Shown: positions 5,711 through 28,179, numbered from the stretch's first letter. The stretch is 64,000 nt of DNA from a virus (IMGVR_UViG_3300029288_005873:288001-352000); one strand, 5' to 3'. Notes: generated by a model not told the origin, from the sequence alone. Made by a program: numbers and translations.

Positions 5711-6616
5711 TCAATGATCTCCAAATTCGCCCTTGACATTTTCGTTTTGACCGGATATTTTTTCATCACCATGCCAAAGGGGGGATGAAACTGATCTTTC
5801 AAATACCCATTTATTCATCATATGCCACTTGGTAGTCTTCCTTACAACATCTATGGCATCATTTGAATCTGTACACCATCCTACAACATCTGTATTCTCT
5901 GTTCCTGTTAGCTGAGATAATAAAAGCATATCCATAGGACTAGCATTGAAAAGAGCCGGCATCTTTATTATATTATTACAGTCATTTTCTGCCATAAACC
6001 AAATCATAGAAGCTACATCATCAGCATAAGCATATCTTCTTTTTTCACAGCTCGGAGACCATCCATCTTCCATTTTACCTACAGCTATTCTCCTCAAAGC
6101 ATCCTCAAACCACCCATTGCCTCTGTTTCCAAAACAGGTTGGAAGTCTTAGGATTTTGCCTCCGGATTCGACTACCATAGATTCGACAAAATTCCACATC
6201 TTTCTATTCCCCATATCTGGAACATCTGTATCGGGAACGAGCCGTATGACTTTTGGTCTCTTTTGTAGATTGGAAAAACCTTTTGACGCATATCGACACG
6301 CTATTGATGTTGGAAGAACTATTTCATTAATTCCATCAGTAGATTCTGGAATTTTTGAAATAGGGGGAACAGACATCATTGTTCCTATTACTAAAATATC
6401 AGGTTTTTCCATCCATATCATGCGATCCATAAATTCAGCATCACCAGCATCACCAATGTGGAAAGAATGTTTTCTGTGCTGATATACTTTGCGAAAATCA
6501 AAGTTTTTAAGACAATCTACACTTGCGAACTCATAATCCTTTGTCCTATATAACATATAGCGCATAAGATTGGACATTAGAAATCCAGCCGAGCCGCAAA
6601 CAAGAATTTTTCTCAT
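5711..6616 (-). CDS. Divergent NAD-dependent epimerase/dehydratase-like (extended SDR) protein
   Basis: ILVCGSAGFLMSN Rossmann start resembling RmlB, R...FG and YAYADDVA later; canonical YxxxK not evident; ATGA overlap start at 6616. Confidence 0.65.
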   Translation of the reverse strand: MRKILVCGSAGFLMSNLMRYMLYRTKDYEFASVDCLKNFDFRKVYQHRKHSFHIGDAGDAEFMDRMIWMEKPDILVIGTMMSVPPISKIPESTDGINEIVLPTSIACRYASKGFSNLQKRPKVIRLVPDTDVPDMGNRKMWNFVESMVVESGGKILRLPTCFGNRGNGWFEDALRRIAVGKMEDGWSPSCEKRRYAYADDVASMIWFMAENDCNNIIKMPALFNASPMDMLLLSQLTGTENTDVVGWCTDSNDAIDVVRKTTKWHMMNKWVFERSVSSPLWHGDEKISGQNENVKGEFGDH

Positions 6617-7392
6617 TTCTTCCCCCACAAAAAATGTCCATCACATTCCCCAAGTTGGAAAGGGGGTCTGTCATTTGTAACCTTCTGTCCAGTACCACGT
6701 CGATCAAGAGAAGATTGTAGTGCTATTTTTGCATTCAAGTCTTGTTCAGGTCTTGCGGCTCTAGATACTTGTCCGGGATGTTGACGGTAATGATATGTTA
6801 TCTTCCCTTCTAGACGTCCCATTCTCCCAGGAAATTTTTCATCAAGACGTAATGCTAAATCGTAATCAACTGCCGATGATAATGTATTGGAATAACCCTC
6901 AAACGATGAAAACCTATAAAATCTAAGTGGAAAAAAGCACATGTATTTAAGAAGCTTGGATCTATCAAATCCCCTATCAGACATTACATGTGGCATAATC
7001 CATGTTTTTCCAGAGTCATCAAAACAATCAAATGTTCCACAAGCAGCAACTAATTCAGGATTCTTTTGCATAAATTCGAGATAAGATGAAAGACAATCTC
7101 CTGGTATTATATCATCTCCACCAACATGACAGATAAAATCCGGATCCTGTAGAATTGAAATTGCCTCATTTTTTAATTTACCTATGAGTCCACATCTTTC
7201 ATTTTTACGTATTACAATACATCGACTATCGGATGCTTTTTTTGCAGTATCAAACGTATCATCATCAGAGGCATCATCAATAACAACTAAGTGCCAATTC
7301 TGAAAATCCTGAGCAATTAGGCTGTCTATTGCCTCACCTACATATTTTGATACATTATGGCAAGGCATATATATTCCTACAGACTTTTTCAT
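6613..7392 (-). CDS. GT2-family glycosyltransferase
   Basis: IYMPCHN...AIDSLIAQ...VVIDDASDD, GGDD, VDYDLALRL, YRQH. Confidence 0.9.
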   Translation of the reverse strand: MKKSVGIYMPCHNVSKYVGEAIDSLIAQDFQNWHLVVIDDASDDDTFDTAKKASDSRCIVIRKNERCGLIGKLKNEAISILQDPDFICHVGGDDIIPGDCLSSYLEFMQKNPELVAACGTFDCFDDSGKTWIMPHVMSDRGFDRSKLLKYMCFFPLRFYRFSSFEGYSNTLSSAVDYDLALRLDEKFPGRMGRLEGKITYHYRQHPGQVSRAARPEQDLNAKIALQSSLDRRGTGQKVTNDRPPFQLGECDGHFLWGKK

Positions 7393-8378
7393 TATTCGAC
7401 CTTTGGAAGCTTTCCTTCCACTCCAAGAAGCTTACAGTCATGATTGACCATTATTTTAACAAGCTCATCAAACTTTACTTTGGGTTCCCATCCAAGTATA
7501 GATTTTGCTTTTGATGGGTCTCCACATAAACTCTCTACTTCAAGAGGGCGCATCATGAATCTATCAATCTCAACATATGTTCCCCAATCCTGTATTCCAG
7601 CATATGAGAAAGCTCTTTCAACAAATTCTCCCACAGTATGCATTTCTCCAGTTGCAAAAACGAAATCTTCAGGCTTTGGTCTTTGAAGCATAAGCCAGAA
7701 TCCTTTGACGAAGTCAGGAGCATAACCCCAATCCCTAGCCGCATCCAAGTTGCCAAGCCTAATCCTATGTGAAGGATCTTTAAGTATTTTTGCTACACCC
7801 ATTGATATTTTTCTTGTAACAAACAACGGACCACGCCTAGGTCCTTCATGATTATGAGTTATCCCAGCACAACAATACATTCCATATGCTTCACGATACA
7901 TCCTTACAAACCAATGAGCAGCCAATTTTGCAATAGCATACGGACTACGAGGTCTCATTATTGTATCTTCATTCTGAGGAGGAGGAGAATCTCCCCACAA
8001 TTCAGATGTACTAGCATGAAACAACCTAATAGAAGGAGCTAGTATTTTTATTGCTTCTAGAATATTCAGTACTCCTACCGCATCTATATTCATTGTAGCA
8101 ATCGGCTGATCAAAACTGGTACCAACATGAGACTGAGCACAGAGATTGAATATCTCATTTGGACGTCCACGTTGAATGATTCTGAAAACCGATGCTGAAT
8201 CAGTAATATCACCTTCTTCTATATCAATTTCTGACTCAAGGTGTGCGGCATTTCCAAGACTTCTTGTAGCATTTCTTCGAATCATGCCAATAACTCTATA
8301 ATCTTTCTCAAGAAGCAATTCAGCCATGTGTGAACCATCTTGTCCTGCTACGCCTGTTACTAAAGCAACTTTTTTCAC
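7392..8378 (-). CDS. gmd: GDP-mannose 4,6-dehydratase
   Basis: ALVTGVAGQDGSHMAELLL, AQSHV, ASTSEL, PRSPYAIAK, NHEGPRRG..FVTRKI, GNLDAARDWGYA. Confidence 0.95.
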   Translation of the reverse strand: MKKVALVTGVAGQDGSHMAELLLEKDYRVIGMIRRNATRSLGNAAHLESEIDIEEGDITDSASVFRIIQRGRPNEIFNLCAQSHVGTSFDQPIATMNIDAVGVLNILEAIKILAPSIRLFHASTSELWGDSPPPQNEDTIMRPRSPYAIAKLAAHWFVRMYREAYGMYCCAGITHNHEGPRRGPLFVTRKISMGVAKILKDPSHRIRLGNLDAARDWGYAPDFVKGFWLMLQRPKPEDFVFATGEMHTVGEFVERAFSYAGIQDWGTYVEIDRFMMRPLEVESLCGDPSKAKSILGWEPKVKFDELVKIMVNHDCKLLGVEGKLPKVE

Positions 8379-9322
8379 TGATTTTCCTCCTTGTTTAGGA
8401 CATCAGCTTTATTCTTAAGCCACCACTCATATGTTTCAATCAATCCTTCTTGGAAAAAGGTTTTTGCCTCGAATCCAAACAGTTCTTTTGCTCGCCTAGT
8501 ATCTAAACATCTACGAGGTTGACCATCAGGTTTGAAAACATCCCATTCAATATTTCCATCAAAACCAACAGTATCTTTGATTTTTTCAGCAAGTTTTCGA
8601 ATAGTGTATTCTCGACCATTTCCCAAGTTTACCGGTTCAGAACCATCGTATCGTTCCAAAGCATCGACAATTCCACAAGCCGCATCTTTTACGTAGAGAA
8701 ACTCTCTAGAAGCCTTTCCAGTACCCCAAAGCTTGACAGAGGCTTTCCCTTCTTCTTTGGCTGTATCAAACTTTCTTATCATTGCTGGAATAACATGCGA
8801 ATCTTCCAGAGAGAAATTATCTCCAGGTCCATATAGATTTACAGGAAGTAAATATATACCATTAAATCCATACTGTTGACGGTATGCCTGAAGCATTACT
8901 AAAAGAGCTTTTTTTGCAATTCCATATGCGCCATTGGTTGGTTCAGGATATCCATTCCAAAGATCCTTTTCCATAAAAGGTACAGGAGTATTCTCAGGAT
9001 ATGCGCAAATTGTACCAACACATACGAATTTTTTTATACAACATGTTCTCGCTACATCTATGGTATTTATTCCCATTAACATATTATCTCTAAAGAATTC
9101 TCCAGGGCGCCTCATATTAGCCCCAATTCCACCACATTTTGCAGCAAGATGAATAACAGCATCAGGATGCATAACTCTCATAAATGCATTAATAGTATCA
9201 TATATGTCAGTCAAGTCATATCCAGATTGATCAATCACATCAACAATATGACCTCTATTCTTAAGAACTTCGACAACATGCTTTCCAAGAAAGCCGTTTC
9301 CTCCAGTTACAAGTACATTCAT
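8375..9322 (-). CDS. fcl: GDP-L-fucose synthase (epimerase/reductase)
   Basis: HLAAKCGGIGAN, GTICAYP, YGIAKK, NLYGPGDNF..SHVIPA, WGTGKASREFLYV, KPDGQPRR. Confidence 0.93.
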   Translation of the reverse strand: MNVLVTGGNGFLGKHVVEVLKNRGHIVDVIDQSGYDLTDIYDTINAFMRVMHPDAVIHLAAKCGGIGANMRRPGEFFRDNMLMGINTIDVARTCCIKKFVCVGTICAYPENTPVPFMEKDLWNGYPEPTNGAYGIAKKALLVMLQAYRQQYGFNGIYLLPVNLYGPGDNFSLEDSHVIPAMIRKFDTAKEEGKASVKLWGTGKASREFLYVKDAACGIVDALERYDGSEPVNLGNGREYTIRKLAEKIKDTVGFDGNIEWDVFKPDGQPRRCLDTRRAKELFGFEAKTFFQEGLIETYEWWLKNKADVLNKEENQ

Positions 9323-9900
9323 TATTTTTCCTTTATTGCTTCAATATGTACAACTGGGTAGAAATTAATACTAGGTAAATCTCTAAAACTAGAGAAACCA
9401 TTTTTTGATAAAAGCGCTTTCAATGTCCTAGGTGTATATCCACAGAAATGATGTGACCATTTGTTTTTCTGCGTTCCATGTATCAATCGAATAGCCCAAT
9501 CCTCTTCCTCTTCTGTATTAGAATTTGCTAGAAGTTTTGCGGTTTCCTTTATGTCGGGAACACTAACTAAAAATTTACCACCGATCGAAAGTACGCGGAA
9601 TATATCAGAAACAATACGATCTACATCATATTTAGGCATATGCTCAAGAACCTGATACATAACAACTTCATCAACAGAACCATCTGAAAAAGGAAGAGGC
9701 TCCTCCATATTATGATCTAGGTCAGAAACAACACAATCATTTAATAATACACCAAAACCTCTTTTATAATAATGCTCATAATCAGTTGAGTTTCTTACCA
9801 TAATCTCAGTAGGACAGTTATATGACATATATTGCGGATCAGTATCTATATTAACATATCCAATAAGATATACCGGTCCACACCCAATATGAAGCTTCAT
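9322..9900 (-). CDS. Class I SAM-dependent methyltransferase
   Basis: LHIGCG...GYVNID, LPFSDGSVD, VLEH, RVL..GG...VSVPD. Confidence 0.85.
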   Translation of the reverse strand: MKLHIGCGPVYLIGYVNIDTDPQYMSYNCPTEIMVRNSTDYEHYYKRGFGVLLNDCVVSDLDHNMEEPLPFSDGSVDEVVMYQVLEHMPKYDVDRIVSDIFRVLSIGGKFLVSVPDIKETAKLLANSNTEEEEDWAIRLIHGTQKNKWSHHFCGYTPRTLKALLSKNGFSSFRDLPSINFYPVVHIEAIKEK

Positions 9901-10778
9901 TATTCTTCTCCATAATATTCATTAAATGTAATAAGATCGGAACTCCCCCAATCATGACCTTCATTTGCTACTACAATACCATTTCTTATATTATCTTGTA
10001 AAAGTATATAGTTATGTACCCAAAGATTATAGCCAAGATCTTTCCTTCTATCTATATGAATATTATCGTTAAAATCTTCTCTAGAATGGTCTTGATGTAT
10101 TCCTACTATTCCATGCTCAAACCTAGGGGTAACTCCAGAAAGTCTCATTCTATTTGAAAAATCATCGTCTTCACCACAAAGACCTCCTAAAAACCTTTCA
10201 TCAACTCCTCCGATATTTTCTATGTGTCGCTTTGCCACACACATAAAATACCAATATGCCGGCGGATGAGGAGGTCTTGTAACACATTCGTTTTTTGCTC
10301 CAGGTATCTGTAGAAGGTGAGACATAGGAAGTGTTTTTAGTCGACCCCATCCTTTTGCAATATAATCTGTACATGCAACATTTGCTCTGAAGACTAAACC
10401 ATAAAGACATTCCATTTTATCTTTAACAGACCATGCTATTTCAAGATTACTTGATGATTGTAGAGTTTCTGGTCCTGTTACAACAATAACCTCACCTCTT
10501 GAAAGCCTAAACCCAACATTATTAGTCAATACTGGAATAAAGCTTTTTACAGGCATAATACTTTTGCTCTTATCTATTTTTACAAATCTTATATTCAAAC
10601 CACTGGATATATTTTTACCATAACAAAGCTGACGAAGACTTTCCCTATCGGAATCGTCAACAATAATTATCTCAAAATCCTTTTTCGGCATAGTCTGAGC
10701 TGCCCAAGTATCAAGCGATCTTTCAAACAGATGAGTTCTGTTATCGCATGCAGAAATAACGACCGATATTTTCATCAC
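9900..10778 (-). CDS. GT2-like glycosyltransferase with GT7-type C-terminus
   Basis: ISVVIS, FEIIIVDD, NVGFRLSRGE, GGVDERFLGGLCGEDDDF. Confidence 0.85.
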   Translation of the reverse strand: MMKISVVISACDNRTHLFERSLDTWAAQTMPKKDFEIIIVDDSDRESLRQLCYGKNISSGLNIRFVKIDKSKSIMPVKSFIPVLTNNVGFRLSRGEVIVVTGPETLQSSSNLEIAWSVKDKMECLYGLVFRANVACTDYIAKGWGRLKTLPMSHLLQIPGAKNECVTRPPHPPAYWYFMCVAKRHIENIGGVDERFLGGLCGEDDDFSNRMRLSGVTPRFEHGIVGIHQDHSREDFNDNIHIDRRKDLGYNLWVHNYILLQDNIRNGIVVANEGHDWGSSDLITFNEYYGEE

Positions 10779-11533
10779 TTTACCCCATATGACTTTGCCA
10801 TCTTATCAATTCTGGAAATAAGTACAGGACAAAGATTGTCCTTAACTTCTACATTAGCTTTGAAAAGGGATTCTTGTGTCCCCGCATCAGACCACCATCC
10901 TCCAATCTCAAAAGTGTCGACAATTCCATCACGCACAAGCGTTCTATTGGCATCTGATATTTCCAACTCACCCCTTATAGACCTTCTAATTTTTGAAATA
11001 GCATCCCAAACCGCTGAAGAATATAGATAAGCCCCAGTAACGGCCAAATCACTTTTTGGATTATTTGGCTTTTCTTCAATATCAATAAGACACTTCATAT
11101 GGTCAACTTCAGCCACACCAAATCTACTAGGATCAGTAACCTTCTTAAGATATAACATACATCTTCCAGGAGTTTTTGTATGAAAATCTAAGAGATCCCC
11201 AAAAATGTTGTCCCCAAGAATCACAGCAATATCGTCTTGACCCGCAAAATCTTTACACAGCATTAAAGCTTCTGCTATTCCTCCAGCAGTATCCTGTACC
11301 TTGTATGTAAAGTTACATCCAAAGCGTTTTCCACTACCCAAAAGTTCGACAACTGACCCTAGATGAAAAAGACCAGATACTATACATATTTCTGTTATTC
11401 CATTCTCAAGCAACTGACTAAGTGGATAGAACAACATAGGACTTTTCCAAACAGGAAGTAGATGTTTGTTAGTCACTTTTGAAAGCGAGCCTAGTCTAGA
11501 TCCTGTTCCACCTGCAAGTATAATTCCCTTCAT
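10775..11533 (-). CDS. rmlA: Glucose-1-phosphate thymidylyltransferase
   Basis: MKGIILAGGTGSRL...NKHLLPV, GGIAEA, ILGDN, RFGVA, EEKP..PKS, RGELEISD; start at 11533 after GGAG. Confidence 0.93.
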   Translation of the reverse strand: MKGIILAGGTGSRLGSLSKVTNKHLLPVWKSPMLFYPLSQLLENGITEICIVSGLFHLGSVVELLGSGKRFGCNFTYKVQDTAGGIAEALMLCKDFAGQDDIAVILGDNIFGDLLDFHTKTPGRCMLYLKKVTDPSRFGVAEVDHMKCLIDIEEKPNNPKSDLAVTGAYLYSSAVWDAISKIRRSIRGELEISDANRTLVRDGIVDTFEIGGWWSDAGTQESLFKANVEVKDNLCPVLISRIDKMAKSYGVK

Positions 11534-11565
11534 GACATTTCTCCAAAGCGCAAATAGCGCTACAT

Positions 11566-12498
11566 TCAAAAATAGTTCCTATTTTCTGAATACCATTTTA
11601 TAGTGTTCTCTAGACCTTTGTCCAAAGGAATTTGTGCTACCCATCCAAGCTCATTATTGGCTATGGAAGAATCTAGAAAATAACGGAAATCATGTCCTTT
11701 CCTATCCTCTACAAATTTTACAAGTGACCTAGATTTACCCATAATATCTAGAATCTTATATACCATATCAATATTTCGCTCTTCATGACCACTACCAAGG
11801 TTATATATTCTTCCAGATTTTCCATGCTCTAGTGTCGCCATGATTCCGAGACAATGATCTTCGACAAACATCCATTCCCTCTGATTAGTACCATTTCCAT
11901 AAATAGGAATATGTTTGTCAGATAAAGCATTCAAAATAACAACTGGAAGAAACTTCTCTTTATACTGTAAAGGTCCATAATTATTACAAGATCTAGTTAT
12001 TACAACATTCATTCCATATGTTTTTCCATAAGATTGTACAAGAACATCTGCAGCCGCTTTAGATGCAGAATACGGCGAACTTGGCTTTATCTGAAACAGG
12101 TTAGAGAAAGGCTGATCATCATGTTTCAAATCTCCATATACCTCATCAGTAGATACGAAAAGAAAACGGTCAATATTTCGTTTTCTTGCCTGCTCAAGCA
12201 GTTCAAATGTACCCATGAAATTGCTCAACATAAATGGTCTTGGAGAAGCTATACTATTATCTACATGTGATTCTGCAGCCATATGTATCACAGCATCAAT
12301 TTTTCCTATGGAATCAAAAACTTCGTCCAAAAATGATCCATCTGATATGTCTCCAACAAAAGTTCGACAAAGACCTAGTGCTGAAGGATCAGAGGCATAT
12401 CTCAAAGCATCAATACCCACAATTTCATGACTGCTAGAAAACATGCGAACGAAATTCTGTGGTATGAATCCGCAGTTTCCAGTCACAAGGATTCGCAT
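11566..12498 (-). CDS. rmlB: dTDP-glucose 4,6-dehydratase
   Basis: AAESHVDNSI, VSTDEVYG, PSSPYSASKAA, NNYGP.Q..EK, DRKGHDFRY. Confidence 0.95.
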   Translation of the reverse strand: MRILVTGNCGFIPQNFVRMFSSSHEIVGIDALRYASDPSALGLCRTFVGDISDGSFLDEVFDSIGKIDAVIHMAAESHVDNSIASPRPFMLSNFMGTFELLEQARKRNIDRFLFVSTDEVYGDLKHDDQPFSNLFQIKPSSPYSASKAAADVLVQSYGKTYGMNVVITRSCNNYGPLQYKEKFLPVVILNALSDKHIPIYGNGTNQREWMFVEDHCLGIMATLEHGKSGRIYNLGSGHEERNIDMVYKILDIMGKSRSLVKFVEDRKGHDFRYFLDSSIANNELGWVAQIPLDKGLENTIKWYSENRNYF

Positions 12499-13577: not shown

Positions 13578-13972
13578 TTCTTCACCTCTTCCAGAAACGT
13601 GGAGTAATCTCTGATGTAGTCATTTTCATCATATAACTCCGATGCGAGTACAATACATACCGTACTAGGATAAAGTGTTAAAGTACACCAAACTAACGGA
13701 GGAACATGAAAACCTACATTTGGACTACGTAGGTATATGGCAGTATTTCTCTGTCCATCATAATCGAGATCTACATTCATACCACCACTAGCCAGGATTA
13801 TAAATTGATGACACTTTCTATGCGCATGACCTCCCCGAGAAATCCCTTGCGGAGGAACATCCGTCATATAGAAAACCCTCTTGATCTCGAAAGGAACTAT
13901 GATGCCGCTTTCTACCCAGCGCAGATTGCCGCGTTCGTCAAAAACGCCTGGTAGTTCTATGGTATAAGCCAT
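13574..13972 (-). CDS. fdtA: dTDP-4-keto-6-deoxyglucose 3,4-ketoisomerase (FdtA/QdtA cupin)
   Basis: DERGNL, PFEIKRVFY, RGGHAH, VLASELYDENDYIRDY. Confidence 0.92.
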   Translation of the reverse strand: MAYTIELPGVFDERGNLRWVESGIIVPFEIKRVFYMTDVPPQGISRGGHAHRKCHQFIILASGGMNVDLDYDGQRNTAIYLRSPNVGFHVPPLVWCTLTLYPSTVCIVLASELYDENDYIRDYSTFLEEVKK

Positions 13973-15314: not shown

Positions 15315-15315
15315 T

Positions 15316-16251: not shown

Positions 16252-16259
16252 AGTGCTCC

Positions 16260-17147: not shown

Positions 17148-17156
17148 GTTTCTCTC

Positions 17157-17822: not shown

Positions 17823-18657
17823 AATGGCCTCCTGAAGATTTTTTGATCAGTTCAAAATATGGATCGTAGACGAGACGTCTATCACTCGCAGTGTGTTTCC
17901 ATCCAGTGGGATAATATGAATCTGGTCCAGTTATAGAGAATTCATGATAATGGTAACACACAAGATTATATTTGCCATCAATAATTAGCTTACCATCTAT
18001 AGTCTTCGATATCGTGTGCCGTCCTATTCCCCATGGTCCCAGATTTATTCCAGGATGAGGACAAGAGAGGGCTCCCTTAAATCTTTCTGGCTGATCATGT
18101 AATATGTTTAACCACCCCTGATCTGCACAACGTCCATCAGGAAGAGTGACCCAGTAACACCATTCTATACAACGGTCTTTCCACCATTCCAAGAATTCTC
18201 TACAGTTACCATCATTTCTATATCCAAGAATACCAACATTAAATCTAACGCCAGATCTGGGGGGTTCAAACCCATGGTCTGTAACCATAAGGGAATGATT
18301 CCCCATAATATTTTCAATCTCTTCAGGACTTGACCAAAAAGCCATATCAGCATCAGTGTAAAATACTGTATCGATCCCAAATTTATCAAAAAGGAACATC
18401 GGAAGCACAGGGGTTATCGTGGCATAATATTCCTTTGGTTGTCTATTACCTTTTGCCTTCAACAGATCCGGACAATATTCTTCTACATCAGAAAGACAGA
18501 TAGGAATAACACCATCAAGTTTTTTGGCCTGCTCTAAAACATTAACATCCAATGCAAGTACAAAAAGTTTTGAATTTGGACTTTCATGTAATAAAGTACT
18601 CCAACAGGTCCAACCCTTTGCCGCATATGCGCTATCAAAATATGTACAGAAGTTCAT
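17803..18657 (-). CDS. GT-A glycosyltransferase (GT8/GT77-like), paralogue 2
   Basis: FCTYFDSAY, YTDADM, FNVG, WW..RC.EWC, DQGWL, GINLGPW, CYHYH. Confidence 0.82.
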   Translation of the reverse strand: MNFCTYFDSAYAAKGWTCWSTLLHESPNSKLFVLALDVNVLEQAKKLDGVIPICLSDVEEYCPDLLKAKGNRQPKEYYATITPVLPMFLFDKFGIDTVFYTDADMAFWSSPEEIENIMGNHSLMVTDHGFEPPRSGVRFNVGILGYRNDGNCREFLEWWKDRCIEWCYWVTLPDGRCADQGWLNILHDQPERFKGALSCPHPGINLGPWGIGRHTISKTIDGKLIIDGKYNLVCYHYHEFSITGPDSYYPTGWKHTASDRRLVYDPYFELIKKSSGGHCGKRNN

Positions 18658-19496
18658 GCTAGTGTTCCTTTCTTTGCCAGTAACATCATATTGTGATAAG
18701 GCTCATATATATTACTCATGTTCCATGGGGAAACTTCCCATCCTGTATCATTCACACACTTTCCAACAATGTCCTTATATCCGTGAAAATGATAACATAT
18801 TAGGTTGTGTCGACAATCTAGGACTATTTTGCCATTGGAAAACGAGGTAGGATGCATGGATAAATTCCAAGGTCCAAGATTTATTCCAGGATGCGTGCTA
18901 ACCTTTACACCAGAAAATCTATTTGGATTGTTATGTATTATAGATAAATATCCTTGATCTGCACAACGTCCATCAGGAAGAGCGCGCCATTCACACCATT
19001 CGAGACAACGTTCCTCCCACCATTTCAAAAAACTAATACCATCTGGACTTTTTCTATATCCGAGAATTCCAACATTGAAGAAACCAGCCCCTCCAGCCAT
19101 AGCAATCGGGTTTTCGTGCGGAGTAACCAATAGAGAGTTGCTACCCATTTCGCTAGATATTTCATCTACAGAAGAAAAAAAAGCCATATCAGCATCAGTG
19201 TAGAATACTGTATCAAGACCAAATTTGTCAAAAAGAAATTGTGGAAGTATAGGCGTTATTGTTGCATAATATTCCTTAGGCTGTCTTGATCCTTTTATGT
19301 TTAATAAAGATGGTCTATATTCTTCTATATCTTTCAACATTATTGGAATTACACCGCGCCATTTAGATACAAGACCGGCAACCACATCATCCATACAAAG
19401 AACAAAAAGACGGACCGATGAATTCGAAGTCAAAGTATGATGGCACACTTTGGCTTTTGTGGCATATGCTGAATCGAAATATGTACAGAAATCCAT
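18654..19496 (-). CDS. GT-A glycosyltransferase (GT8/GT77-like), paralogue 1
   Basis: Same motif set as the adjacent paralogue (FCTYFDSAY, YTDADM, FNVG, DQGYL, CYHFH). Confidence 0.82.
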   Translation of the reverse strand: MDFCTYFDSAYATKAKVCHHTLTSNSSVRLFVLCMDDVVAGLVSKWRGVIPIMLKDIEEYRPSLLNIKGSRQPKEYYATITPILPQFLFDKFGLDTVFYTDADMAFFSSVDEISSEMGSNSLLVTPHENPIAMAGGAGFFNVGILGYRKSPDGISFLKWWEERCLEWCEWRALPDGRCADQGYLSIIHNNPNRFSGVKVSTHPGINLGPWNLSMHPTSFSNGKIVLDCRHNLICYHFHGYKDIVGKCVNDTGWEVSPWNMSNIYEPYHNMMLLAKKGTLA

Positions 19497-19499
19497 GAC

Positions 19500-22400
19500 C
19501 TATCCTTGAAGAAGTTTTTTTACAAAAGGAGTATTAGACCTTTCCATCGGACGAACTAGAGAATTTCCAGCCCTCCCAACACGTATTACAAGATCGGAAG
19601 TAGACCTTTGTCCAGTAAGTGGAACGCGCCTAAGAAATGAATTCTGACCATGCACATCAAGATGCTCTGACCCTTCACCTGCCACAAAAATATGAGAATT
19701 GGTAAAATGGCATCTAATACGCAAAGCAGCTTCAATGATCCTATTGGGTTCACAGCCCTTAACAGGAATTAATAGAACCGTAGGATACGGAAAACGAGAA
19801 GATTCTCCAGGTTTCCAGGCTGCAAGGATATATTTCATATCATGCATAAGTTTTGAATGAGCTATACCGTTGCTTCTTCTAAGTTCATCATTCGTACAAT
19901 TATGCATAAGATTACAATGAGTACATGCTATTATCCTTCCACCAGTTCTTAGAATACGCATATCAAGATCAGTATCCTGTGAATAATATGGATAATCCAT
20001 GTTAATCCCATCAAATTTTTTCAAGGTCTCTGTATACATACAACCAACTGTTGGAAAATATATACCACTATCCATCCTTACAGTATATACATCTCCCCAT
20101 GAATTTTTTACACAAAATCCACCCATATCTATTGGTGATGATTCATCCATAACAAGACACATATCTGAAAGTGCCGCCCCCTGGGGAACTATATCATCAC
20201 TTAGCCAACAGATGTATTTTCCTTTTGCTATGGCAAGAGCCTCATTGAAGGCTTGAGTAAAGCTTGTTCTTTTGCCAGAAAATATTGGAATTATTCGCTT
20301 GTCCTCACCAGATCGTTTGCGCAACCATTCCTGCGTTCCATCATTGGAACCAGCATCATTGACAATTATTTCTACCGAGTGCAAATTAGAAGATACCAAT
20401 GACGAATCAACCGCTTGTTGTAGCTGGTTTAGACGATTGTGAGTTCCTATAAATATCGTAAGATCTACAGGTTTTCCATTAGCATTATTGAGGAAATTTG
20501 CCCTTCTACTATTCATGCTTCGCATTAGATCAAATACAGCATTTCGAAAAGCTGCTGGATTTTCTAAAGGCAAAACTCCAGGATCCCAAGACCATGTGCC
20601 GATAAGAGACATTGAAAAATATGGCTGTAGAAATGAATCATATCTAACGGTCAAATGATCCACACAAAAACGTAAATCAATCATTCTCTGATCTACATAT
20701 TCCCCTCCAGGATGCCATGCTATAGCGAGCATATTAGGAAGCTTTCTACGCAGATCAAGCATAAGATCTCGCCAAGGAAGACCATCAGCCTGTTCATCAA
20801 GGAAAAGTAATAGAATATCTGGGTTAAAACGCAAAATCTTAGCAACAAGATCTCTACATTCTGTGAATGGTATAGTTAAGAAGTCCATATCATGTAGGGT
20901 CGTTTTTGACATAAGATCCATAGGAGGATCCCTCATGATACACAATGTCCGCTTGAATGTGTAGGAAATTCTGTTTTTTGGAAAGTTTGGCATAATTGCC
21001 TCAAAACATCCAATACGGAGTGCTAGTTCTTTAATACGTAGAACGCGCGAGTGAGAAAGGGCTGTTTTAGCACCATTGTCTCCGATTTTTTTTGCCTTTG
21101 TAGGATCTGCGGAAAGCTGTGCAACCAAAGACGCACTTTCTTCTGGAGAATCAAACAAGAGAAGATCATGCCCATCTTCGCACCATTCAATAATTTCCAT
21201 AGATCGCTTTGCGATCACAGGCACACCACTTGCCATAAGCCCAAAGAGTTTTCGCATAGGACCTTCTACAAAAACGATCGACTTGGCATCAAATAGAGCT
21301 GAGCGACATTCCGTATCACCATGTGCCGCTAGGCGTATATAAGCAGTATTTGGCAAGTGTGTTCGAATTGTTTCTAAATAAGTTTCTGAAGAACTTTCGG
21401 CAAAGATTACAGCATCGCATTTCTGTTCTCTATCTGGGGGGTTAAATCCGACAGCCCCAGCGTCCCAAAGCTCGACATTGAAGCATCCAGCAGAACGATA
21501 AATAGCAAGCTCAATTTCACTTTCCACCAAAGCTAAATCAACAGCTCGAAGGACAGCTAAAGCATTTTTGTCAAAAACAGGCCAACCCGGAGAAAGCCAG
21601 GCTGTAATAAAAACATTGGGAATAGAAAACCTAATATCATTTATTGTTGTTGTTGTAATTGCGGTCGGACGACCAAGATGAAAATGTACAATATTAGCAC
21701 CGCGTTCAACTGCAATTTTACTGAGATTTATAAGATTTCCGTAAACAGGTATTCCTTCGCACCGTATTCCATTCGCTATAAATGCGTCTTTTGTGACAAT
21801 TTCGTCATCAAGTTCAGATACCACTAGTACTTTTGTATCATGTCCAGAAAATCGTGAATATTGAAGATTGTTTGGAATAGGAGAAAGTTCAGCCTTATGT
21901 ATTTGAATTGGTGCTGCTGTCGTCGTCATATGTGGTCTGTTTCGCTTCACCAAACGCATTTGCGGTTTTTCTGGAGCAGAATCTGTGGCTGCCGAAACAG
22001 GTTCAGAAGACGATGATGCAATCATTTTAGGTTCTTGGACAGGGGTGTCTTGCGGAAGAACCTCAAAAGCAATTCGTTTTACTAACAGGGATCCCGTACC
22101 ACCAGGAGATCTCCAAAGTCTGAGCATAATTGGTATATTTGGTGGAAAATCACTGGTTTTTAATTGAAGTTCAAACGTACTCCATGCGGCGCTTTCACAA
22201 AGCATAGGTTGATGGGGAAAATCAAAACTTCGATTTGCATAAAAGTTACAGAAGAGTTTCCCATTCCCACTTTCCCTTTTAAGATCAAGTTGAAGGCGGT
22301 AAACTGAATTGGGTTCCACTTTTGCTGGCACAAACAAGACAGATTTTTCGCCTTCCATTGATTGGCATTTTACGCCACGTTCGTCCCTTTTTGCTACAAG

Positions 22401-22889
22401 ACTTCTGCCGCGCCAAAACTGTTGGTCAAAGCTGTTCATTTCCCACCAGTCCTCCATCTGCTCAAGGCAGTATTTTTTATCAAACGCACTAATATGACGC
22501 GGCTCTGGCATGGGTCCAACACCGCGTGGAAGCTTTACCGCATCAACTTGTTCAATAATTACAATACCAGAACCAGGAGTTCTTGATATTTTGATGAACG
22601 CCAGATTAATAGGTGTGGCAACATTTCCTGTTGTAACGTCTATCTCAAACACATGCCCATTTGGTGGGCAGTTAAAAGAAACCTGTGCAAATTGCTGTTC
22701 ATTTTCCGCACAAATCTCAAAACAAAGAATGCGCCCATCAGTATTTGGGTTTGAGGCCATAACCCTACAACGGTACACAGAATTTTTCTCAAATTCTACG
22801 GGAACGTATAGGCTGGAATCACAATCAAGACCAAAACAGCCATCGTCCATGTGTAGAAAATTTCCCCCCCACAAGCAAGGATCTGACAT
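19500..22889 (-). CDS. Multidomain glycosyltransferase: two N-terminal CBM-like beta-sandwich repeats, GT-B (CgeB-like) domain, C-terminal GT2 domain
   Basis: Repeated VPV/A..E.NSVYR; LMASGVPVI..EDGHDLLLF..PEE; IGTHNR..IIVNDAGSNDGT..AKGKYICWLSDD..QDTDL. Confidence 0.8.
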   Translation of the reverse strand: MSDPCLWGGNFLHMDDGCFGLDCDSSLYVPVEFEKNSVYRCRVMASNPNTDGRILCFEICAENEQQFAQVSFNCPPNGHVFEIDVTTGNVATPINLAFIKISRTPGSGIVIIEQVDAVKLPRGVGPMPEPRHISAFDKKYCLEQMEDWWEMNSFDQQFWRGRSLVAKRDERGVKCQSMEGEKSVLFVPAKVEPNSVYRLQLDLKRESGNGKLFCNFYANRSFDFPHQPMLCESAAWSTFELQLKTSDFPPNIPIMLRLWRSPGGTGSLLVKRIAFEVLPQDTPVQEPKMIASSSSEPVSAATDSAPEKPQMRLVKRNRPHMTTTAAPIQIHKAELSPIPNNLQYSRFSGHDTKVLVVSELDDEIVTKDAFIANGIRCEGIPVYGNLINLSKIAVERGANIVHFHLGRPTAITTTTINDIRFSIPNVFITAWLSPGWPVFDKNALAVLRAVDLALVESEIELAIYRSAGCFNVELWDAGAVGFNPPDREQKCDAVIFAESSSETYLETIRTHLPNTAYIRLAAHGDTECRSALFDAKSIVFVEGPMRKLFGLMASGVPVIAKRSMEIIEWCEDGHDLLLFDSPEESASLVAQLSADPTKAKKIGDNGAKTALSHSRVLRIKELALRIGCFEAIMPNFPKNRISYTFKRTLCIMRDPPMDLMSKTTLHDMDFLTIPFTECRDLVAKILRFNPDILLLFLDEQADGLPWRDLMLDLRRKLPNMLAIAWHPGGEYVDQRMIDLRFCVDHLTVRYDSFLQPYFSMSLIGTWSWDPGVLPLENPAAFRNAVFDLMRSMNSRRANFLNNANGKPVDLTIFIGTHNRLNQLQQAVDSSLVSSNLHSVEIIVNDAGSNDGTQEWLRKRSGEDKRIIPIFSGKRTSFTQAFNEALAIAKGKYICWLSDDIVPQGAALSDMCLVMDESSPIDMGGFCVKNSWGDVYTVRMDSGIYFPTVGCMYTETLKKFDGINMDYPYYSQDTDLDMRILRTGGRIIACTHCNLMHNCTNDELRRSNGIAHSKLMHDMKYILAAWKPGESSRFPYPTVLLIPVKGCEPNRIIEAALRIRCHFTNSHIFVAGEGSEHLDVHGQNSFLRRVPLTGQRSTSDLVIRVGRAGNSLVRPMERSNTPFVKKLLQG

Positions 22890-22901
22890 AATTACCGCCT
22901 C

Positions 22902-25166
22902 CTATGTAAACATACTGTCATATAGGTCTGATATTCCCGCATTATCCTTTCCCATTAATTCTTTCGCAAAATCAAATGCGTGTTTGGACATAACTGTATT
23001 TTGTTCAGGATTACACAGTTTCTTTATAGCGTCTACATATCTATCAGTACCTCCTCGCACTATAAAGCCATTAACCCCGTCCAAAACAACCTCAGGAATT
23101 GCTCCAACATTGGAAGCGACAACAGGAACTCCGGAGGCAAAGGCTTCCAAAATCGTCAAAGGCAAACCTTCCATTGCCGAAGGCAAAAGAAAAGCATCAA
23201 AGGCTGCGTAGAATCGTTCCGTATCAGTGCGACGACCGACAAATATTACATTCCCCAAACTACTAGCCATTTTCTTCAGAACGTTTTCTTGAGGACCGCT
23301 TCCAACTATAACAAATACAGCCTCAGGCAAGGCTCTAGCGCATGATAACACTATTGGAATATTCTTCTCAGGCGAAAGACGTGCTATTGTGCCAACAACA
23401 AAACGATTTGTTGGACAACCAATTTCAGTAAGAACCTGTTTGTTTTTTGGAAGACCGAATTTTTCCCATGCAATCTGCTGTGGCAAATATCGTACGTTTT
23501 TATTACCCTTTTTGGCAAGCTTTGTACAGATTGTCTCAGATACGCCAACAATCATAGAAACATTGCGTCTGGTTGCAACCTTCGCCATAGAATCTTGCCA
23601 AATTAGATCACTGTGAACCGTCTCTACAATCTTGCCACCCCATCCTTCACTCAATATCCTAAGCAACAGGGCATAAACCTGTAGACTGTTGTAAAAATGA
23701 ACTATGTCATATTTTTCAACTTCTATCAGACATTTAAGGGCATTTCCCTCACCTCGATGACTTAGGTTCTCCAAATTAACCCCAAGGTCACCAAAAAGGG
23801 AAACCAATTCGTTCGACATTCCAAGAGGAAAAGCAACCGTTGGTTCATACTTCTCTCTATCAAGGCGCAAAATAGCTTCGCGTACCCAAACCTCTCCTCC
23901 ACCAGCCATATTATATGGAATAACATATAGTATTTTGCGCTTACGTGTCTTTGGAATAAGGTTGTGTTTTTGTGCTAAACACTCTTCCGCAAGATCCGTT
24001 ATCTGTTTTGCAGCAGCAGTCCATGAAAATTTATTAACGGTTTCGTTTGCAGCATCTAATACTCTGGCTTTTTCTTCAGCCACATTGTTATAGACGCGAC
24101 GCATAAGCTCAGAACAATGTTTTGTACTAGGATCACCAACAACAGCGTCTTTTGAATGTGTCCAATATTGCATACTTGGTGGAGCCTTCATCTCACCAGT
24201 ATTAACAAGTATTGAATTTTTATCATTTAGAAAATCTAACTGTCCACCATGTCGTGGTGCTATAACCACATTCCCACATGCCAAAGCCTCAAGCAATGGT
24301 AGTGCAAAACCTTCACAAGAACTCATGCTAACTACCGCATCACAAGCAGTATATAATGATCCTATATCGTCAACAAAAGATGTGACTATCTCTATTTCTG
24401 GAGGATTAGCCCTACCCTTCATTTTATTTTCCAAAATAGCACGCACATCAACCTCAAAAGGTTTGTCTGGAGCAGGCTTTAGAAATTTGGTTTTCATAAC
24501 CAAACACACATCATCATCACCAGTGAAAGCATCAAGATACGCTTCAAGAACACGATCATGGCATTTCCTGGCATGTGGTATTGCGTTATGGAGAAACTTA
24601 ACCCTTTTCTTTGTGTGTAGTGGAAATGGAGCAATTCCTGGGTGGAATATTCTACGATCTACTCCATGAGGGACAACAACAAGTTTGGAACTAGGAATGC
24701 CGTTGTTTAAGAAGATGTCTGATGAATATTGGCTAGATGGAAGTATATAATCTACCCCCCGGTGAAATTCTTGCCAACCACACGGAAGTACTGAACTCTC
24801 AAAATTCCAAATAACCATTTTACTTCTAGATTCACCAAAAAATCTACGCGGAATCTGGTAAAGTATAGTATATGCTAATTCTAAGTCATAAGGTCTATTT
24901 ATATCATTTATATCATCAGGACATTTCTTGCGATCTATAGATACTTCTGATCCATCATCATCCAGAAACACAAGTTCCGGCTGAGAAGGATGCCCGTGAT
25001 ATCCTGGAAGCAGAAGATGTCTAAGGTCATCAGGAAAATGCTCTAACCCATTTGTGGATTTTATATGAACACTATGTCCAGCATTGTTCATTTCTCTAGC
25101 CAAGGCTTGTGTAACAAGGCTCCACGAATGAAGTGTAGCCGCCATGCCATGCCATCTAATCTTCAT
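22902..25166 (-). CDS. Tandem double GT4 (GT-B) glycosyltransferase
   Basis: Two GT4 signatures: EGFALPLLEALACG and EGLPLTILEAFASGVPVVASNVG; also VVPHGVD, GGGE, ARLSPEKN. Confidence 0.92.
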   Translation of the reverse strand: MKIRWHGMAATLHSWSLVTQALAREMNNAGHSVHIKSTNGLEHFPDDLRHLLLPGYHGHPSQPELVFLDDDGSEVSIDRKKCPDDINDINRPYDLELAYTILYQIPRRFFGESRSKMVIWNFESSVLPCGWQEFHRGVDYILPSSQYSSDIFLNNGIPSSKLVVVPHGVDRRIFHPGIAPFPLHTKKRVKFLHNAIPHARKCHDRVLEAYLDAFTGDDDVCLVMKTKFLKPAPDKPFEVDVRAILENKMKGRANPPEIEIVTSFVDDIGSLYTACDAVVSMSSCEGFALPLLEALACGNVVIAPRHGGQLDFLNDKNSILVNTGEMKAPPSMQYWTHSKDAVVGDPSTKHCSELMRRVYNNVAEEKARVLDAANETVNKFSWTAAAKQITDLAEECLAQKHNLIPKTRKRKILYVIPYNMAGGGEVWVREAILRLDREKYEPTVAFPLGMSNELVSLFGDLGVNLENLSHRGEGNALKCLIEVEKYDIVHFYNSLQVYALLLRILSEGWGGKIVETVHSDLIWQDSMAKVATRRNVSMIVGVSETICTKLAKKGNKNVRYLPQQIAWEKFGLPKNKQVLTEIGCPTNRFVVGTIARLSPEKNIPIVLSCARALPEAVFVIVGSGPQENVLKKMASSLGNVIFVGRRTDTERFYAAFDAFLLPSAMEGLPLTILEAFASGVPVVASNVGAIPEVVLDGVNGFIVRGGTDRYVDAIKKLCNPEQNTVMSKHAFDFAKELMGKDNAGISDLYDSMFT

Positions 25167-25218
25167 AATTTTCCTTTATTGGTCTAGCGAGGAGATCTTT
25201 CCATTGTCATAAAGTTTC

Positions 25219-25398
25219 CTATTGTGGATCTTGATTTTTTTCCTTGCTCTGTCTAAACAATGTCGCTATCATCTCGCGAACAACCGCAGTGACAGTTTTG
25301 TAGTTTTGACGAGCATATTCCACAAGAAAATCATGAAGCTCTGTCTCGAGACGCAGGTTGATCTGTCGGCGATCTACATTCTTGTTTGGTTCTCTCAT
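25219..25398 (-). CDS. Arc/MetJ-type ribbon-helix-helix DNA-binding protein (59 aa, below ORF-track cutoff)
   Basis: Manual translation MREPNKNVDRRQINLRLETELHDFLVEYARQNYKTVTAVVREMIATLFRQSKEKNQDPQ; QINLRL strand plus two helices as in Arc; GGAG before the ATG. Confidence 0.8.
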   Translation of the reverse strand: MREPNKNVDRRQINLRLETELHDFLVEYARQNYKTVTAVVREMIATLFRQSKEKNQDPQ

Positions 25399-28167: not shown

Positions 28168-28179
28168 TCTAGCCTCCAA

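What the first reader, a model, noticed from the sequence alone, without database searches (positions are those of the whole stretch)
5711..25398. ~19.7-kb self-contained cytoplasmic glycosylation operon next to the tail genes of a jumbo phage
Seen: 20 co-oriented, mostly abutting or overlapping genes. They include gmd, fcl, rmlA, rmlB, fdtA, fdtB, about nine GT-like genes (GT2, double GT4, GT47, two GT8/77-like, one multidomain), three methyltransferases and an RHH regulator. There is no Wzx/Wzy/Wzz, ABC exporter, undecaprenyl-phosphate priming transferase or obvious membrane protein. Known: bacterial surface-polysaccharide loci generally need such membrane steps. Chloroviruses and mimiviruses encode a comparable soluble toolkit (GDP-sugar enzymes, multidomain GTs, glycan methyltransferases, amino-sugar pathways) to glycosylate their particles. 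Inference: a giant-virus-style system building a complex methylated glycan directly on phage particles, for shielding or adhesion.
Basis: partly seen in the sequence, partly recalled or inferred. Interest (0 to 1): 0.88.

Follow-up and report, generated by a model that had tools for sequence, protein, structure and literature searches.

The report
Huge-phage sugar-coating gene island
A 442-kb uncultured phage carries, right after its tail-fibre genes, a 20-gene block of soluble enzymes that make rare sugars and join them into a complex methylated glycan. This block is the enlarged form of a smaller sugar-enzyme slot found at the same place in most related huge-phage records checked, and it most likely coats the phage particle, but what it coats has not been shown.

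Summary
Window 5711-25398 (minus strand) has 20 tightly packed, co-oriented genes in a 441,904-bp IMG/VR phage record. They encode Gmd and Fcl; RmlA, RmlB, FdtA and an FdtB-type aminotransferase; nine glycosyltransferase genes with about 11 catalytic domains; two firm and one weak methyltransferase; a diverged SDR; and an Arc/RHH-like protein. No cluster protein has a membrane segment. The genome has no priming transferase, flippase, polymerase or ABC exporter.

New here:
- The island is the expanded form of a slot (GT4, two GT2, one SDR) between the fibre genes and tubulin/UvsW/DnaC/DnaB. A GT4 homolog was found in 18 of 19 larger related records, and at that position in all ten regions I mapped. 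Its content is hypervariable; one relative adds a sialic-acid-type pathway.
- The operon is headed by a phage-specific promoter-like motif that also heads the tail-sheath gene.
- The hydroxymethylase behind known DNA glycosylation is absent.

Best reading: late, cytoplasmic glycosylation of outer virion proteins (about 0.5). Modification of host envelope polymers through host carriers remains a serious rival (about 0.25). DNA glycosylation is unlikely.

Earlier notes of this scan on the same genome reported the DGY tag and the promoter motif. I re-tested both.

Novelty: a new variant of virus-encoded glycosylation.

The parts
25461..25478 (-). Promoter-like motif CTATCAAT-N6-RCAT, 63 nt upstream of the RHH start codon
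   Evidence: There are 18 copies in the genome against about 0.2 expected. Thirteen are intergenic although only 6.5% of the genome is non-coding. Other copies head the tail sheath gene and a tail-protein gene. The full motif occurs once in the 23-kb locus of the closest relative, upstream of its RHH gene.
25219..25398 (-). 59-aa Arc/RHH-like protein, first gene of the operon
   Evidence: PHROG 876 and 582 repressor families, E 2.7e-6 and 1e-3. Conserved at 55-69% identity before the GT4 gene in four relatives.
22902..25166 (-). 754-aa fusion of two GT4 (GT-B) glycosyltransferases. The N-terminal module is conserved in most related records and is the candidate initiating enzyme.
   Evidence: PF00534 1.6e-44 in two stretches, PF13439 and PF20706. 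E-x7-E is present in both halves (sequence). The N-module has a homolog in 18 of 19 related records, just after the fibre genes in the regions mapped.
19500..22889 (-). 1129-aa multidomain glycosyltransferase: N-terminal domain, GT-B-like region about 156-620, GT2 domain about 808-1040
   Evidence: PF00535 1.2e-15 at 811-939 and PF13524 at 543-615. The modules occur separately in homologs.
18654..19496 (-). GT8-clan retaining-type GT-A glycosyltransferase (paralog b)
   Evidence: No Pfam hit. AF2 model pLDDT 93. Foldseek hits LARGE1, glycogenin, LgtC and XXYLT1, E about 1e-8. 86 homologs, all metagenomic and many on contigs of 90-340 kb.
17803..18657 (-). GT8-clan GT-A glycosyltransferase (paralog a)
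   Evidence: 52% identical to paralog b, with the same DxD-type motif.
17157..17822 (-). Class I SAM methyltransferase (221 aa)
   Evidence: PF13649 2e-11 and PF08241 7e-11. Weak match to sugar N,N-dimethyltransferase TylM1-type structures, E 0.004.
16260..17147 (-). Probable GT-A glycosyltransferase (295 aa)
   Evidence: PF00535 9e-5, just under the cut-off. Conserved at 45-49% identity in three relatives.
15316..16263 (-). GT47/exostosin-like (GT-B) glycosyltransferase
   Evidence: PF03016 5e-10, over the cut-off, and PF24785.
14655..15314 (-). Possible third methyltransferase (219 aa from the internal ATG; the ORF runs to 15500)
   Evidence: Only a weak match to catechol O-methyltransferase, E 0.005. 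No Pfam or NCBIfam hit. 70% identical ortholog in G001.
13972..14673 (-). Unannotated GT-A fold glycosyltransferase (233 aa)
   Evidence: AF2 pLDDT 91.7. Foldseek hits B4GALNT1, TarS, TarP, RmlT and WrtF, E 2e-8 to 1e-5. 178 homologs without a Pfam domain.
13574..13972 (-). FdtA-type dTDP-4-keto-6-deoxyhexose 3,4-ketoisomerase
   Evidence: PF05523 9e-39.
12483..13577 (-). DegT/FdtB-type PLP sugar aminotransferase
   Evidence: PF01041 4e-78.
11566..12498 (-). RmlB, dTDP-glucose 4,6-dehydratase
   Evidence: TIGR01181 1e-110, 369.8 bits, over the 365 cut-off.
10775..11569 (-). RmlA, glucose-1-phosphate thymidylyltransferase. It is the only nucleotidyltransferase in the genome.
   Evidence: PF00483 7e-48 and TIGR01207 2e-58. 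Single genome hit.
9900..10778 (-). Probable GT-A glycosyltransferase (292 aa)
   Evidence: Weak PF00535 and PF02709 hits; NF041875 EpsD N-terminus 7e-10. 40-72% identical orthologs in relatives.
9322..9900 (-). Class I SAM methyltransferase (192 aa)
   Evidence: PF08241 8e-9. It travels next to GT8-clan genes in three MAG contigs.
8375..9322 (-). Fcl, GDP-L-fucose synthase
   Evidence: NF047922 2e-86 and PF01370 5e-56.
7392..8378 (-). Gmd, GDP-mannose 4,6-dehydratase
   Evidence: PF16363 1.4e-114 and TIGR01472 1e-109.
6613..7392 (-). GT2 glycosyltransferase (259 aa)
   Evidence: PF00535 2.6e-22.
5711..6628 (-). Diverged SDR (305 aa), last gene of the island. It holds the position of the RmlB-like SDR that closes the slot in distant relatives.
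   Evidence: PF01370 1e-8, partial. Its N-terminus is 33-40% identical to the slot SDR next to tubulin in distant relatives.
26713..37962 (-). Context and candidate acceptors: three genes (488, 942 and 2307 aa) lying after baseplate J, read as tail fibres by position and size
   Evidence: Baseplate J at 37980-41234. Dockerin-type repeats in the 942-aa protein. DGY tripeptide counts of 3, 5 and 5 against 0.06-0.6 expected.

Best explanation
The island is a late-expressed operon that works in the cytoplasm and glycosylates phage proteins.

Proposed steps:
1. Sugar donors. Gmd and Fcl turn host GDP-mannose into GDP-L-fucose. RmlA, RmlB, FdtA and the aminotransferase turn glucose-1-phosphate into a dTDP-3-amino-3,6-dideoxyhexose. 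This sugar may be N-methylated, since no acyltransferase is present.
2. Start of the glycan. The conserved N-terminal GT4 module of the 754-aa enzyme puts the first sugar on outer virion proteins. The fibre and tail proteins encoded just upstream are the obvious candidates, possibly at the over-represented Asp-Gly-Tyr sites.
3. Extension. About ten further GT domains and two or three methyltransferases extend and cap the glycan without any lipid carrier or export step.
4. Outcome. The glycan is hypervariable between related phages, as expected for an exposed coat that shields or mediates adhesion.

Shown: gene content, solubility, absence of membrane steps, synteny, motif sharing.
Inferred: the acceptor, the order of action, the timing.
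For: (1) All GT2, GT1 and SDR-epimerase hits of the 442-kb genome lie in this island. None of its proteins has a TM segment, and the genome lacks PF02397, PF00953, an ABC_tran hit over cut-off and any protein with more than 7 TM segments.

(2) A homolog of the GT4 N-module (35-40% identical) occurs in 18 of 19 larger related records. In all ten regions mapped the order fibres, GT4, variable GT/SDR set, then tubulin/UvsW/DnaC/DnaB where the fetched stretch reaches that far, is kept. An enzyme conserved together with conserved phage fibre proteins, while downstream GTs vary, fits a phage-encoded acceptor.

(3) The motif CTATCAAT-N6-RCAT (18 copies against about 0.2 expected, 13 intergenic) precedes the RHH gene, the tail sheath gene and a tail-protein gene. 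It is kept upstream of RHH in the closest relative.

(4) Content varies like a surface glycan locus. G003's island is about 33 kb and adds NeuB, a CMP-cytidylyltransferase and a GT29-like transferase. No membrane protein appears in the relatives' islands.

(5) DGY is the most over-represented tripeptide in the window's virion proteins (23 against 2.3 expected) and across the family. It is absent from the island's own proteins.

(6) Precedents: mycobacteriophage virions glycosylated by phage GTs (as described in PMC12363180 and PMC12619734) and soluble chlorovirus GTs (PMC9614988).
Against: - No direct evidence for any acceptor.
- The whole region from sheath to DnaB is syntenic in the family, so adjacency to the fibres may be one inherited arrangement and not repeated selection.
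- The other flank of the slot is replication genes, and one distant relative has an Fpg DNA glycosylase inside the slot.
- GT4 is also present in two low-DGY relatives, so no co-variation signal links DGY to the enzymes.
- The promoter class is assigned only from the genes it heads; three copies head homing endonucleases.
- Soluble GTs are also typical of lipid-linked host pathways.
Confidence: 0.5

Rival explanations
1. Host-envelope remodelling. The soluble phage GTs act at the inner face of the membrane on the host's own lipid-linked intermediates or polymers (O-antigen, capsule, teichoic acid, S-layer glycan). They use the host's priming transferase, flippase or ABC exporter. The result changes the infected cell's surface, for example to block superinfection or to stop progeny from sticking to debris.
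For: Most GTs of bacterial surface-glycan loci are themselves soluble, so lack of TM segments is not diagnostic (my own knowledge). The GT-A model matches TarS, TarP and RmlT, which glycosylate wall teichoic acid in the cytoplasm. As I recall, TarP is prophage-encoded. Cyanophage GT islands of up to 13 GTs are read this way in the literature (PMC12801897). The sugars made here (fucose, 3-amino-3,6-dideoxyhexose, nonulosonic acid in G003) are classic envelope sugars.
Against: No priming, flipping, polymerising or exporting gene in any of the islands examined. The GT4 is conserved across a broad phage family with differing base composition and probably differing hosts, whereas host acceptors would differ. 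The promoter-like motif is shared with the sheath operon, which points to late expression, when surface remodelling would bring little benefit in a lytic cycle.
Confidence: 0.25
2. DNA hypermodification. The enzymes attach sugars to modified bases of the phage genome to evade restriction, as in T4 and other phages that glycosylate hydroxymethyl-pyrimidines.
For: The slot abuts replication genes (tubulin, UvsW, DnaC, DnaB). One distant relative has an Fpg-type DNA glycosylase inside the slot. Phage GTs that build di- and tri-saccharides on DNA are known (Pyle et al. 2024, as cited in PMC12619734).
Against: No thymidylate-synthase-family hydroxymethylase in the genome. No Tet/JBP hit, though that control did not ring, so it says little. 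Eleven GT domains, three methyltransferases and two or three nucleotide-sugar pathways far exceed any DNA glycan I know of. The promoter-like motif is shared with structural genes.
Confidence: 0.07
3. Another soluble acceptor. The glycan is built on non-virion proteins (phage or host), on a small molecule or on a free oligosaccharide, for example to disable a host defence or to form an intracellular or secreted matrix.
For: Nothing in the sequences fixes the acceptor. PF20706, a GT4 family named for conflict systems, matches the double GT4 (3.8e-10).
Against: No partner gene suggests such a target. Position and motif sharing with tail genes favour a virion role.
Confidence: 0.15

Closest known systems
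Mycobacteriophage virion glycosylation (Che8, Corndog, Myrna; Freeman et al. 2023, read only through PMC12363180 and PMC12619734)
   Same: Tailed phages that encode their own soluble glycosyltransferases. In those phages the glycans are on capsid and tail-tube subunits and shield against antibodies.
   Different: As far as I recall, those phages have few GT genes and no nucleotide-sugar pathways. Here there are nine GT genes with about 11 domains, two sugar pathways and methyltransferases. No close homology was found: the GT2 gene 6613-7392 found no actinophage match, and the GT4 N-module is only about 26% identical to Streptomyces phage GTs. The acceptor here is unknown.
Chlorovirus PBCV-1 and Megavirinae glycosylation machinery (PMC9614988, PMC7826918, PMC10117803)
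   Same: Virus-encoded Gmd/GMER-type GDP-sugar enzymes, amino-sugar pathways, multidomain GTs, glycan methylation and mostly soluble cytoplasmic enzymes. Gene content is clade-specific.
   Different: Those are eukaryotic giant viruses with N-linked capsid glycans or fibril polysaccharides. Only fold-level similarity to their GT8-like proteins was seen. Here the genes form one operon in a tailed phage, next to tail fibre genes.
Cyanomyovirus GT / 'cell-wall' gene islands (S-SCSM2R, S-SCSM1, P-SSM2; PMC12801897)
   Same: Large phages with many soluble GTs (up to 13) plus Gmd and epimerases. gmd homologs are common in cyanophages. Function is equally unproven.
   Different: Different GT families. 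The GT8-clan family here has no match in the isolated-phage collection. FdtA is nearly absent from isolated phages. This island has a fixed place after the fibre genes across a phage family.
Bacterial cytoplasmic protein O-glycosylation (serine-rich adhesin GtfA/GtfB systems, flagellin glycosylation islands; PMC5207246 for C. difficile flagellin)
   Same: Sequential soluble GTs (GT4, GT8, GT2) and methyltransferases build a glycan directly on a folded or nascent protein before export or assembly, without a lipid carrier.
   Different: No homology beyond family level. Structures of the adhesin GT4 Gtf1 are among many equal GT4 hits. No adhesin or flagellin substrate is present here.
Wzx/Wzy- or ABC-dependent surface polysaccharide loci
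   Same: Same nucleotide-sugar pathways and GT families, and a low-GC, hypervariable locus.
   Different: Priming transferase, flippase, polymerase, chain-length regulator and exporter are all absent from the phage genome.

Membership tests
Bacterial Wzx/Wzy- or ABC-dependent surface polysaccharide locus | Initiating polyprenyl-phosphate sugar-phosphate transferase (PF02397 or PF00953) | tested here: not met
   No match in the 442-kb genome. Controls rang in 9 and 12 of 14 genomes.
Bacterial Wzx/Wzy- or ABC-dependent surface polysaccharide locus | Flippase/polymerase (10-14 TM segments) or ABC exporter | tested here: not met
   No ORF with more than 7 predicted TM segments in the genome. The multi-TM ORFs are an M50 peptidase, small DUFs and a tail protein. 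ABC_tran hits are below the cut-off. No TM ORFs in the relatives' islands.
Phage-encoded virion glycosylation (mycobacteriophage type) | Phage-encoded glycosyltransferases | tested here: met
   Nine GT genes.
Phage-encoded virion glycosylation (mycobacteriophage type) | Glycans covalently attached to capsid or tail proteins | not testable with these tools
   Needs virions or glycoproteomics. DGY enrichment is only a lead.
Phage-encoded virion glycosylation (mycobacteriophage type) | Sequence kinship with the Che8, Corndog or Myrna GTs | tested here: inconclusive
   tblastn of one GT2 (6613-7392) and of the double GT4 against 50,697 phage records listed no mycobacteriophage match. Only Streptomyces phage GTs at about 26% identity appeared. 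Those GTs were not compared directly.
Giant-virus autonomous glycosylation (chlorovirus/mimivirus type) | Virus-encoded nucleotide-sugar synthesis, multidomain GTs and glycan methyltransferases, predicted soluble | tested here: met
   compared with PMC9614988.
Giant-virus autonomous glycosylation (chlorovirus/mimivirus type) | Homology to A064R, A111/114R or the mimivirus cluster enzymes | tested here: inconclusive
   Only fold-level hits to giant-virus GT8-like proteins (TM 0.5-0.55, 10-14% identity). No direct sequence comparison was possible.
T4-type DNA glycosylation | dCMP/dUMP hydroxymethylase (thymidylate synthase family) that makes the acceptor base | tested here: not met
   PF00303 is absent; the control rang in 10 of 14 genomes.
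T4-type DNA glycosylation | TET/JBP dioxygenase route to 5hmC | tested here: inconclusive
   No hit, but the control rang nowhere.
dTDP-3-acetamido-3,6-dideoxyhexose (Fuc3NAc/Qui3NAc) pathway | RmlA, RmlB, 3,4-ketoisomerase and aminotransferase | tested here: met
dTDP-3-acetamido-3,6-dideoxyhexose (Fuc3NAc/Qui3NAc) pathway | FdtC/QdtC-type N-acetyltransferase | tested here: not met
   No acyl- or formyltransferase domain in any island gene. The amine may stay free or be methylated.
GT8 clan (retaining GT-A) | GT-A fold with a DxD motif that superposes on glycogenin, LgtC or LARGE1 | tested here: met
   Model pLDDT 93. Foldseek E about 1e-8, TM 0.55-0.61. D101 and D103 are invariant.

The most novel reading that the evidence does not exclude
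A broad family of huge phages carries an ancestral, late-expressed glycosylation slot next to its fibre genes. The conserved GT4 starts O-glycosylation of outer virion proteins at the Asp-Gly-Tyr tag. Lineages then diversify the glycan (fucose, methylated 3-amino-3,6-dideoxyhexose, nonulosonic acids) into phage 'serotypes'. This would be a bacteriophage counterpart of giant-virus glycan coats and an uncommon case of tyrosine-linked viral glycosylation.
Probability: 0.2. Interest if true: 0.85.

Novelty: new variant of a known kind. Interest (0 to 1): 0.62.

Why it matters
Virus-encoded, host-independent glycosylation has been demonstrated, as far as I know, only in giant eukaryotic viruses and, with few enzymes, in actinophages. 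Here a whole family of uncultured huge phages keeps a sugar-enzyme slot at one genomic position. One clade has expanded it to about 11 transferase domains and two or three rare-sugar pathways.

If the target is the virion, tailed phages can wear complex, fast-evolving glycan coats. That bears on host recognition, environmental stability and antibody evasion in phage therapy, and on how metagenomic 'auxiliary metabolic' sugar genes are read.

The island also offers several GT families without a Pfam domain for enzymology: the GT8-clan family found almost only on phage-like contigs, and the 233-aa GT-A family.

Tried and rejected
I used the search for related loci, the genome search and the fetch from genomes instead.
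- Sigma-70 promoter and terminator scans were no better than shuffles.
- The protein atlas gave nothing for the N-terminal 500 residues of the 1129-aa GT.
- PDB sequence searches gave nothing useful for the GT8-clan family or the 233-aa protein. Fold searches were needed.
- Megablast of the island against phages found nothing.
- Co-variation test of DGY density against presence of the GT4: inconclusive. GT4 is near-universal, is present even in the two low-DGY records that extend far enough, and the other low-DGY records are short fragments.
- Bacillus phage G, the nearest isolated relative by tubulin, has no such slot near its FtsZ-like gene.
- Freeman et al. 2023 is not held. Al-Shayeb et al. 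2020 does not mention glycosylation.
- Misassembled host contig: rejected, because phage genes flank both sides and the order recurs in other huge-phage records.
- The methyltransferases could not be assigned to N- or O-methylation.
- The host was not identified.


Full report
**What is there**

The window is bases 288,001-352,000 of a 441,904-bp IMG/VR virus record that CheckV rates complete. Nearly all genes in the window run on the minus strand. In transcription order they are:
- tail sheath (60671-63199), a tape-measure-like protein, a tail lysin-like protein, and baseplate J (37980-41234);
- three large genes that I read as tail fibres by their position after baseplate J (2307, 942 and 488 aa), then a glycine-rich 389-aa protein;
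- the 20-gene block at 25398-5711;
- a tubulin, a UvsW-type helicase, a DnaC-like loader and DnaB.

Genes in the block overlap by 1-20 nt or are at most 52 nt apart.

**Gene content**

Firm assignments: Gmd, Fcl, RmlA, RmlB (over the equivalog cut-off), a DegT/FdtB-type aminotransferase, FdtA, a GT2, a GT47-like enzyme, two class I methyltransferases, and two larger GT proteins. The 754-aa protein is made of two GT4 units, each with E-x7-E. The 1129-aa protein has a GT-B-like region and a GT2 domain, and these modules occur separately in homologs.

Four ORFs had no family hit.
- Two are paralogs, 52% identical. A model of one (pLDDT 93) matches the GT8 clan: LARGE1, glycogenin, LgtC and XXYLT1.
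- The 233-aa ORF folds as GT-A, matching B4GALNT1, TarS, TarP, RmlT and WrtF.
- The fourth has only a weak catechol-O-methyltransferase match.

Two further ORFs are weak GT-A candidates that are conserved in relatives. The first gene is a 59-aa Arc/RHH-like protein. The last is a diverged SDR.

The count is therefore nine GT genes with about 11 catalytic domains, two firm and one possible methyltransferase, and two nucleotide-sugar pathways. No N-acyltransferase is present, so the 3-amino sugar may stay free or be methylated. This is inference.

**Is it soluble and alone?**

A Kyte-Doolittle scan finds no true membrane segment in the island. Genome-wide, no ORF has more than 7 segments. The scan does pick up an M50 peptidase and a tail protein, so it can detect such segments.

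PF02397, PF00953 and any ABC_tran hit over the cut-off are absent, and the control genomes rang. All GT2, GT1 and SDR-epimerase hits of the genome are inside the island.

The only nucleotidyltransferase is RmlA, so GDP-mannose must come from the host. 'Self-contained' is thus only partly right.

**Relatives**

The GT8-clan family has 86 homologs, all metagenomic and many on contigs of 90-340 kb. It has none in 50,697 isolated-phage records. Only three matches turned up in 185,579 species genomes, all on MAG contigs. One of these again pairs the family with rmlA, fdtA, fdtB and rmlB.

Four other huge-phage records (302-340 kb) show the same order from the fibre genes into the island (RHH, then the double GT4). 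Three of them were followed further: one closes with the SDR and continues into tubulin, UvsW, DnaC and DnaB, a second was followed to tubulin, and the third only into its island. The interior differs:
- one island is about 33 kb and adds NeuB, a CMP-cytidylyltransferase, a GT29-like transferase, SDRs and methyltransferases;
- others add HAD-nucleotidyltransferase fusions and homing endonucleases;
- one has an intein inside gmd.

None of the added ORFs has membrane segments.

**The wider family**

A baseplate-J profile recovered 79 loci. A homolog of the N-terminal GT4 module (35-40% identical) is present in 18 of the 19 larger records that could be searched. The one without it ends just after the fibres.

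In nine more distant genomes I fetched the region around that GT4. Three stretches show the whole order: fibres, GT4, a short variable set, an RmlB-like SDR, tubulin. In two the slot continues past the fetched end, and the other four were fetched from the GT4 onward, three of them reaching the SDR and tubulin and two running on through DnaB. In the two slots I annotated by Pfam the variable set holds two GT2 genes.

The 20-gene island is therefore an expanded version of an ancestral slot. Its frame is kept, with the GT4 at the head and a GT2 and SDR at the tail. Its interior is hypervariable.

**Regulation**

Earlier first-reader notes of this scan proposed a phage promoter motif. I tested it. 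CTATCAAT-N6-RCAT occurs 18 times in the genome against about 0.2 expected. Thirteen copies are intergenic although only 6.5% of the genome is non-coding.

One copy sits 63 nt upstream of the RHH start. Others head the tail sheath gene, a tail-protein paralog of the 488-aa fibre-region protein, three HNH endonucleases and several unknown genes beyond the window's high-coordinate end, where earlier scan notes place the head genes. I did not check those genes myself.

In the closest relative the full motif occurs once in 23 kb, again upstream of RHH. The TATCAAT core lies 60-350 nt upstream of RHH in three more relatives.

This supports co-regulation with structural genes. The temporal class itself is inferred.

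**The DGY lead**

Earlier follow-ups on this genome reported an Asp-Gly-Tyr tag on outer virion proteins. My own count agrees:
- 23 observed against 2.3 expected in the window's virion proteins, making it the top tripeptide, and none in the island;
- about ten-fold enrichment in most of the 79 family loci, while permuted tripeptides show much less or none.

The GT4 is present in nearly all records with enough sequence, including two low-DGY records. The co-variation test therefore says nothing.

**Weighing the readings**

Virion glycosylation is favoured by five points:
- absence of any lipid-carrier or export step in every island examined;
- conservation of the head GT4 together with conserved fibre proteins;
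- the motif shared with the sheath operon;
- surface-locus-like hypervariability;
- the precedents in mycobacteriophages and giant viruses (PMC12363180, PMC12619734, PMC9614988).

It is not shown.

The host-envelope rival stays alive. Soluble GTs are normal in lipid-linked pathways. As I recall, prophage-encoded TarP modifies host teichoic acid through host machinery, and TarP is among the fold hits. Cyanophage GT islands are read in this way (PMC12801897).

DNA glycosylation is unlikely, for three reasons:
- no hydroxymethylase is present;
- the enzyme set is far too elaborate;
- the regulation looks structural.

Against that, the replication-gene flank and an Fpg gene in one relative's slot deserve mention.

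**Novelty**

I found no paper describing this island or family-wide slot. The kind of system, virus-encoded glycosylation, is known. The new points are the scale, the fixed position after the fibre genes across a huge-phage family, the GT families without a Pfam domain and the sugar set in a tailed phage.

Noticed in passing
L036:10690-12879 (G002, IMGVR_UViG_3300005826_000294): The gmd ortholog of a 302-kb relative is interrupted by an intein. It is one 729-aa ORF with an Intein_splicing domain between the two Gmd halves. Inteins tend to sit in genes the element cannot lose.
   Followed up: partly
L035:5952-8232 (G003, IMGVR_UViG_3300023199_000204): The relative's island carries NeuB, a CMP-sugar cytidylyltransferase and a GT29-like (sialyltransferase-type) protein. 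This is a nonulosonic-acid branch absent from the window's phage.
   Followed up: partly
window 25515-26684 (-): A 389-aa glycine-rich protein (long GGS/GGG runs) lies between the fibre-region genes and the RHH gene. It has no family hit and no ortholog at this place in the relatives, which often have an extra GT8-clan gene here.
   Followed up: no
genome 33301-33639 (-), outside the window (L010): A 112-aa protein with four TM segments and a sub-threshold EamA-like match (E 1.4e-5). Small EamA/SMR-type proteins include lipid-linked sugar flippase subunits. It lies 260 kb from the island and is the only remotely export-like gene seen.
   Followed up: no
L138:13068-13901 (G011, IMGVR_UViG_3300033402_000292): A complete Fpg/Nei-type DNA glycosylase gene sits inside the minimal GT slot of a distant relative, between the two GT2 genes.
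   Followed up: no
window 26713-28179 (-); genome 8178-9860 and 9948-11642: The 488-aa fibre-region protein has two paralogs (560 and 564 aa) 280 kb away. One is headed by the same promoter-like motif. A GT8-clan gene lies directly next to a homolog of this protein in two close relatives and in a distant 15-kb contig (L024).
   Followed up: partly
L023:5298-6200, L023:14234-15568, L035:1057-2178: Homing endonuclease genes (LAGLIDADG, DUF4379 treble-clef repeats) are scattered through the relatives' islands.
   Followed up: no
L040 (JABMOB010000034.1, labelled Parcubacteria MAG): A 24.6-kb MAG contig carries two GT8-clan genes, the 192-aa methyltransferase, rmlA, fdtA, fdtB and rmlB in one row. 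This module looks portable, or the contig is a mis-binned phage fragment.
   Followed up: partly
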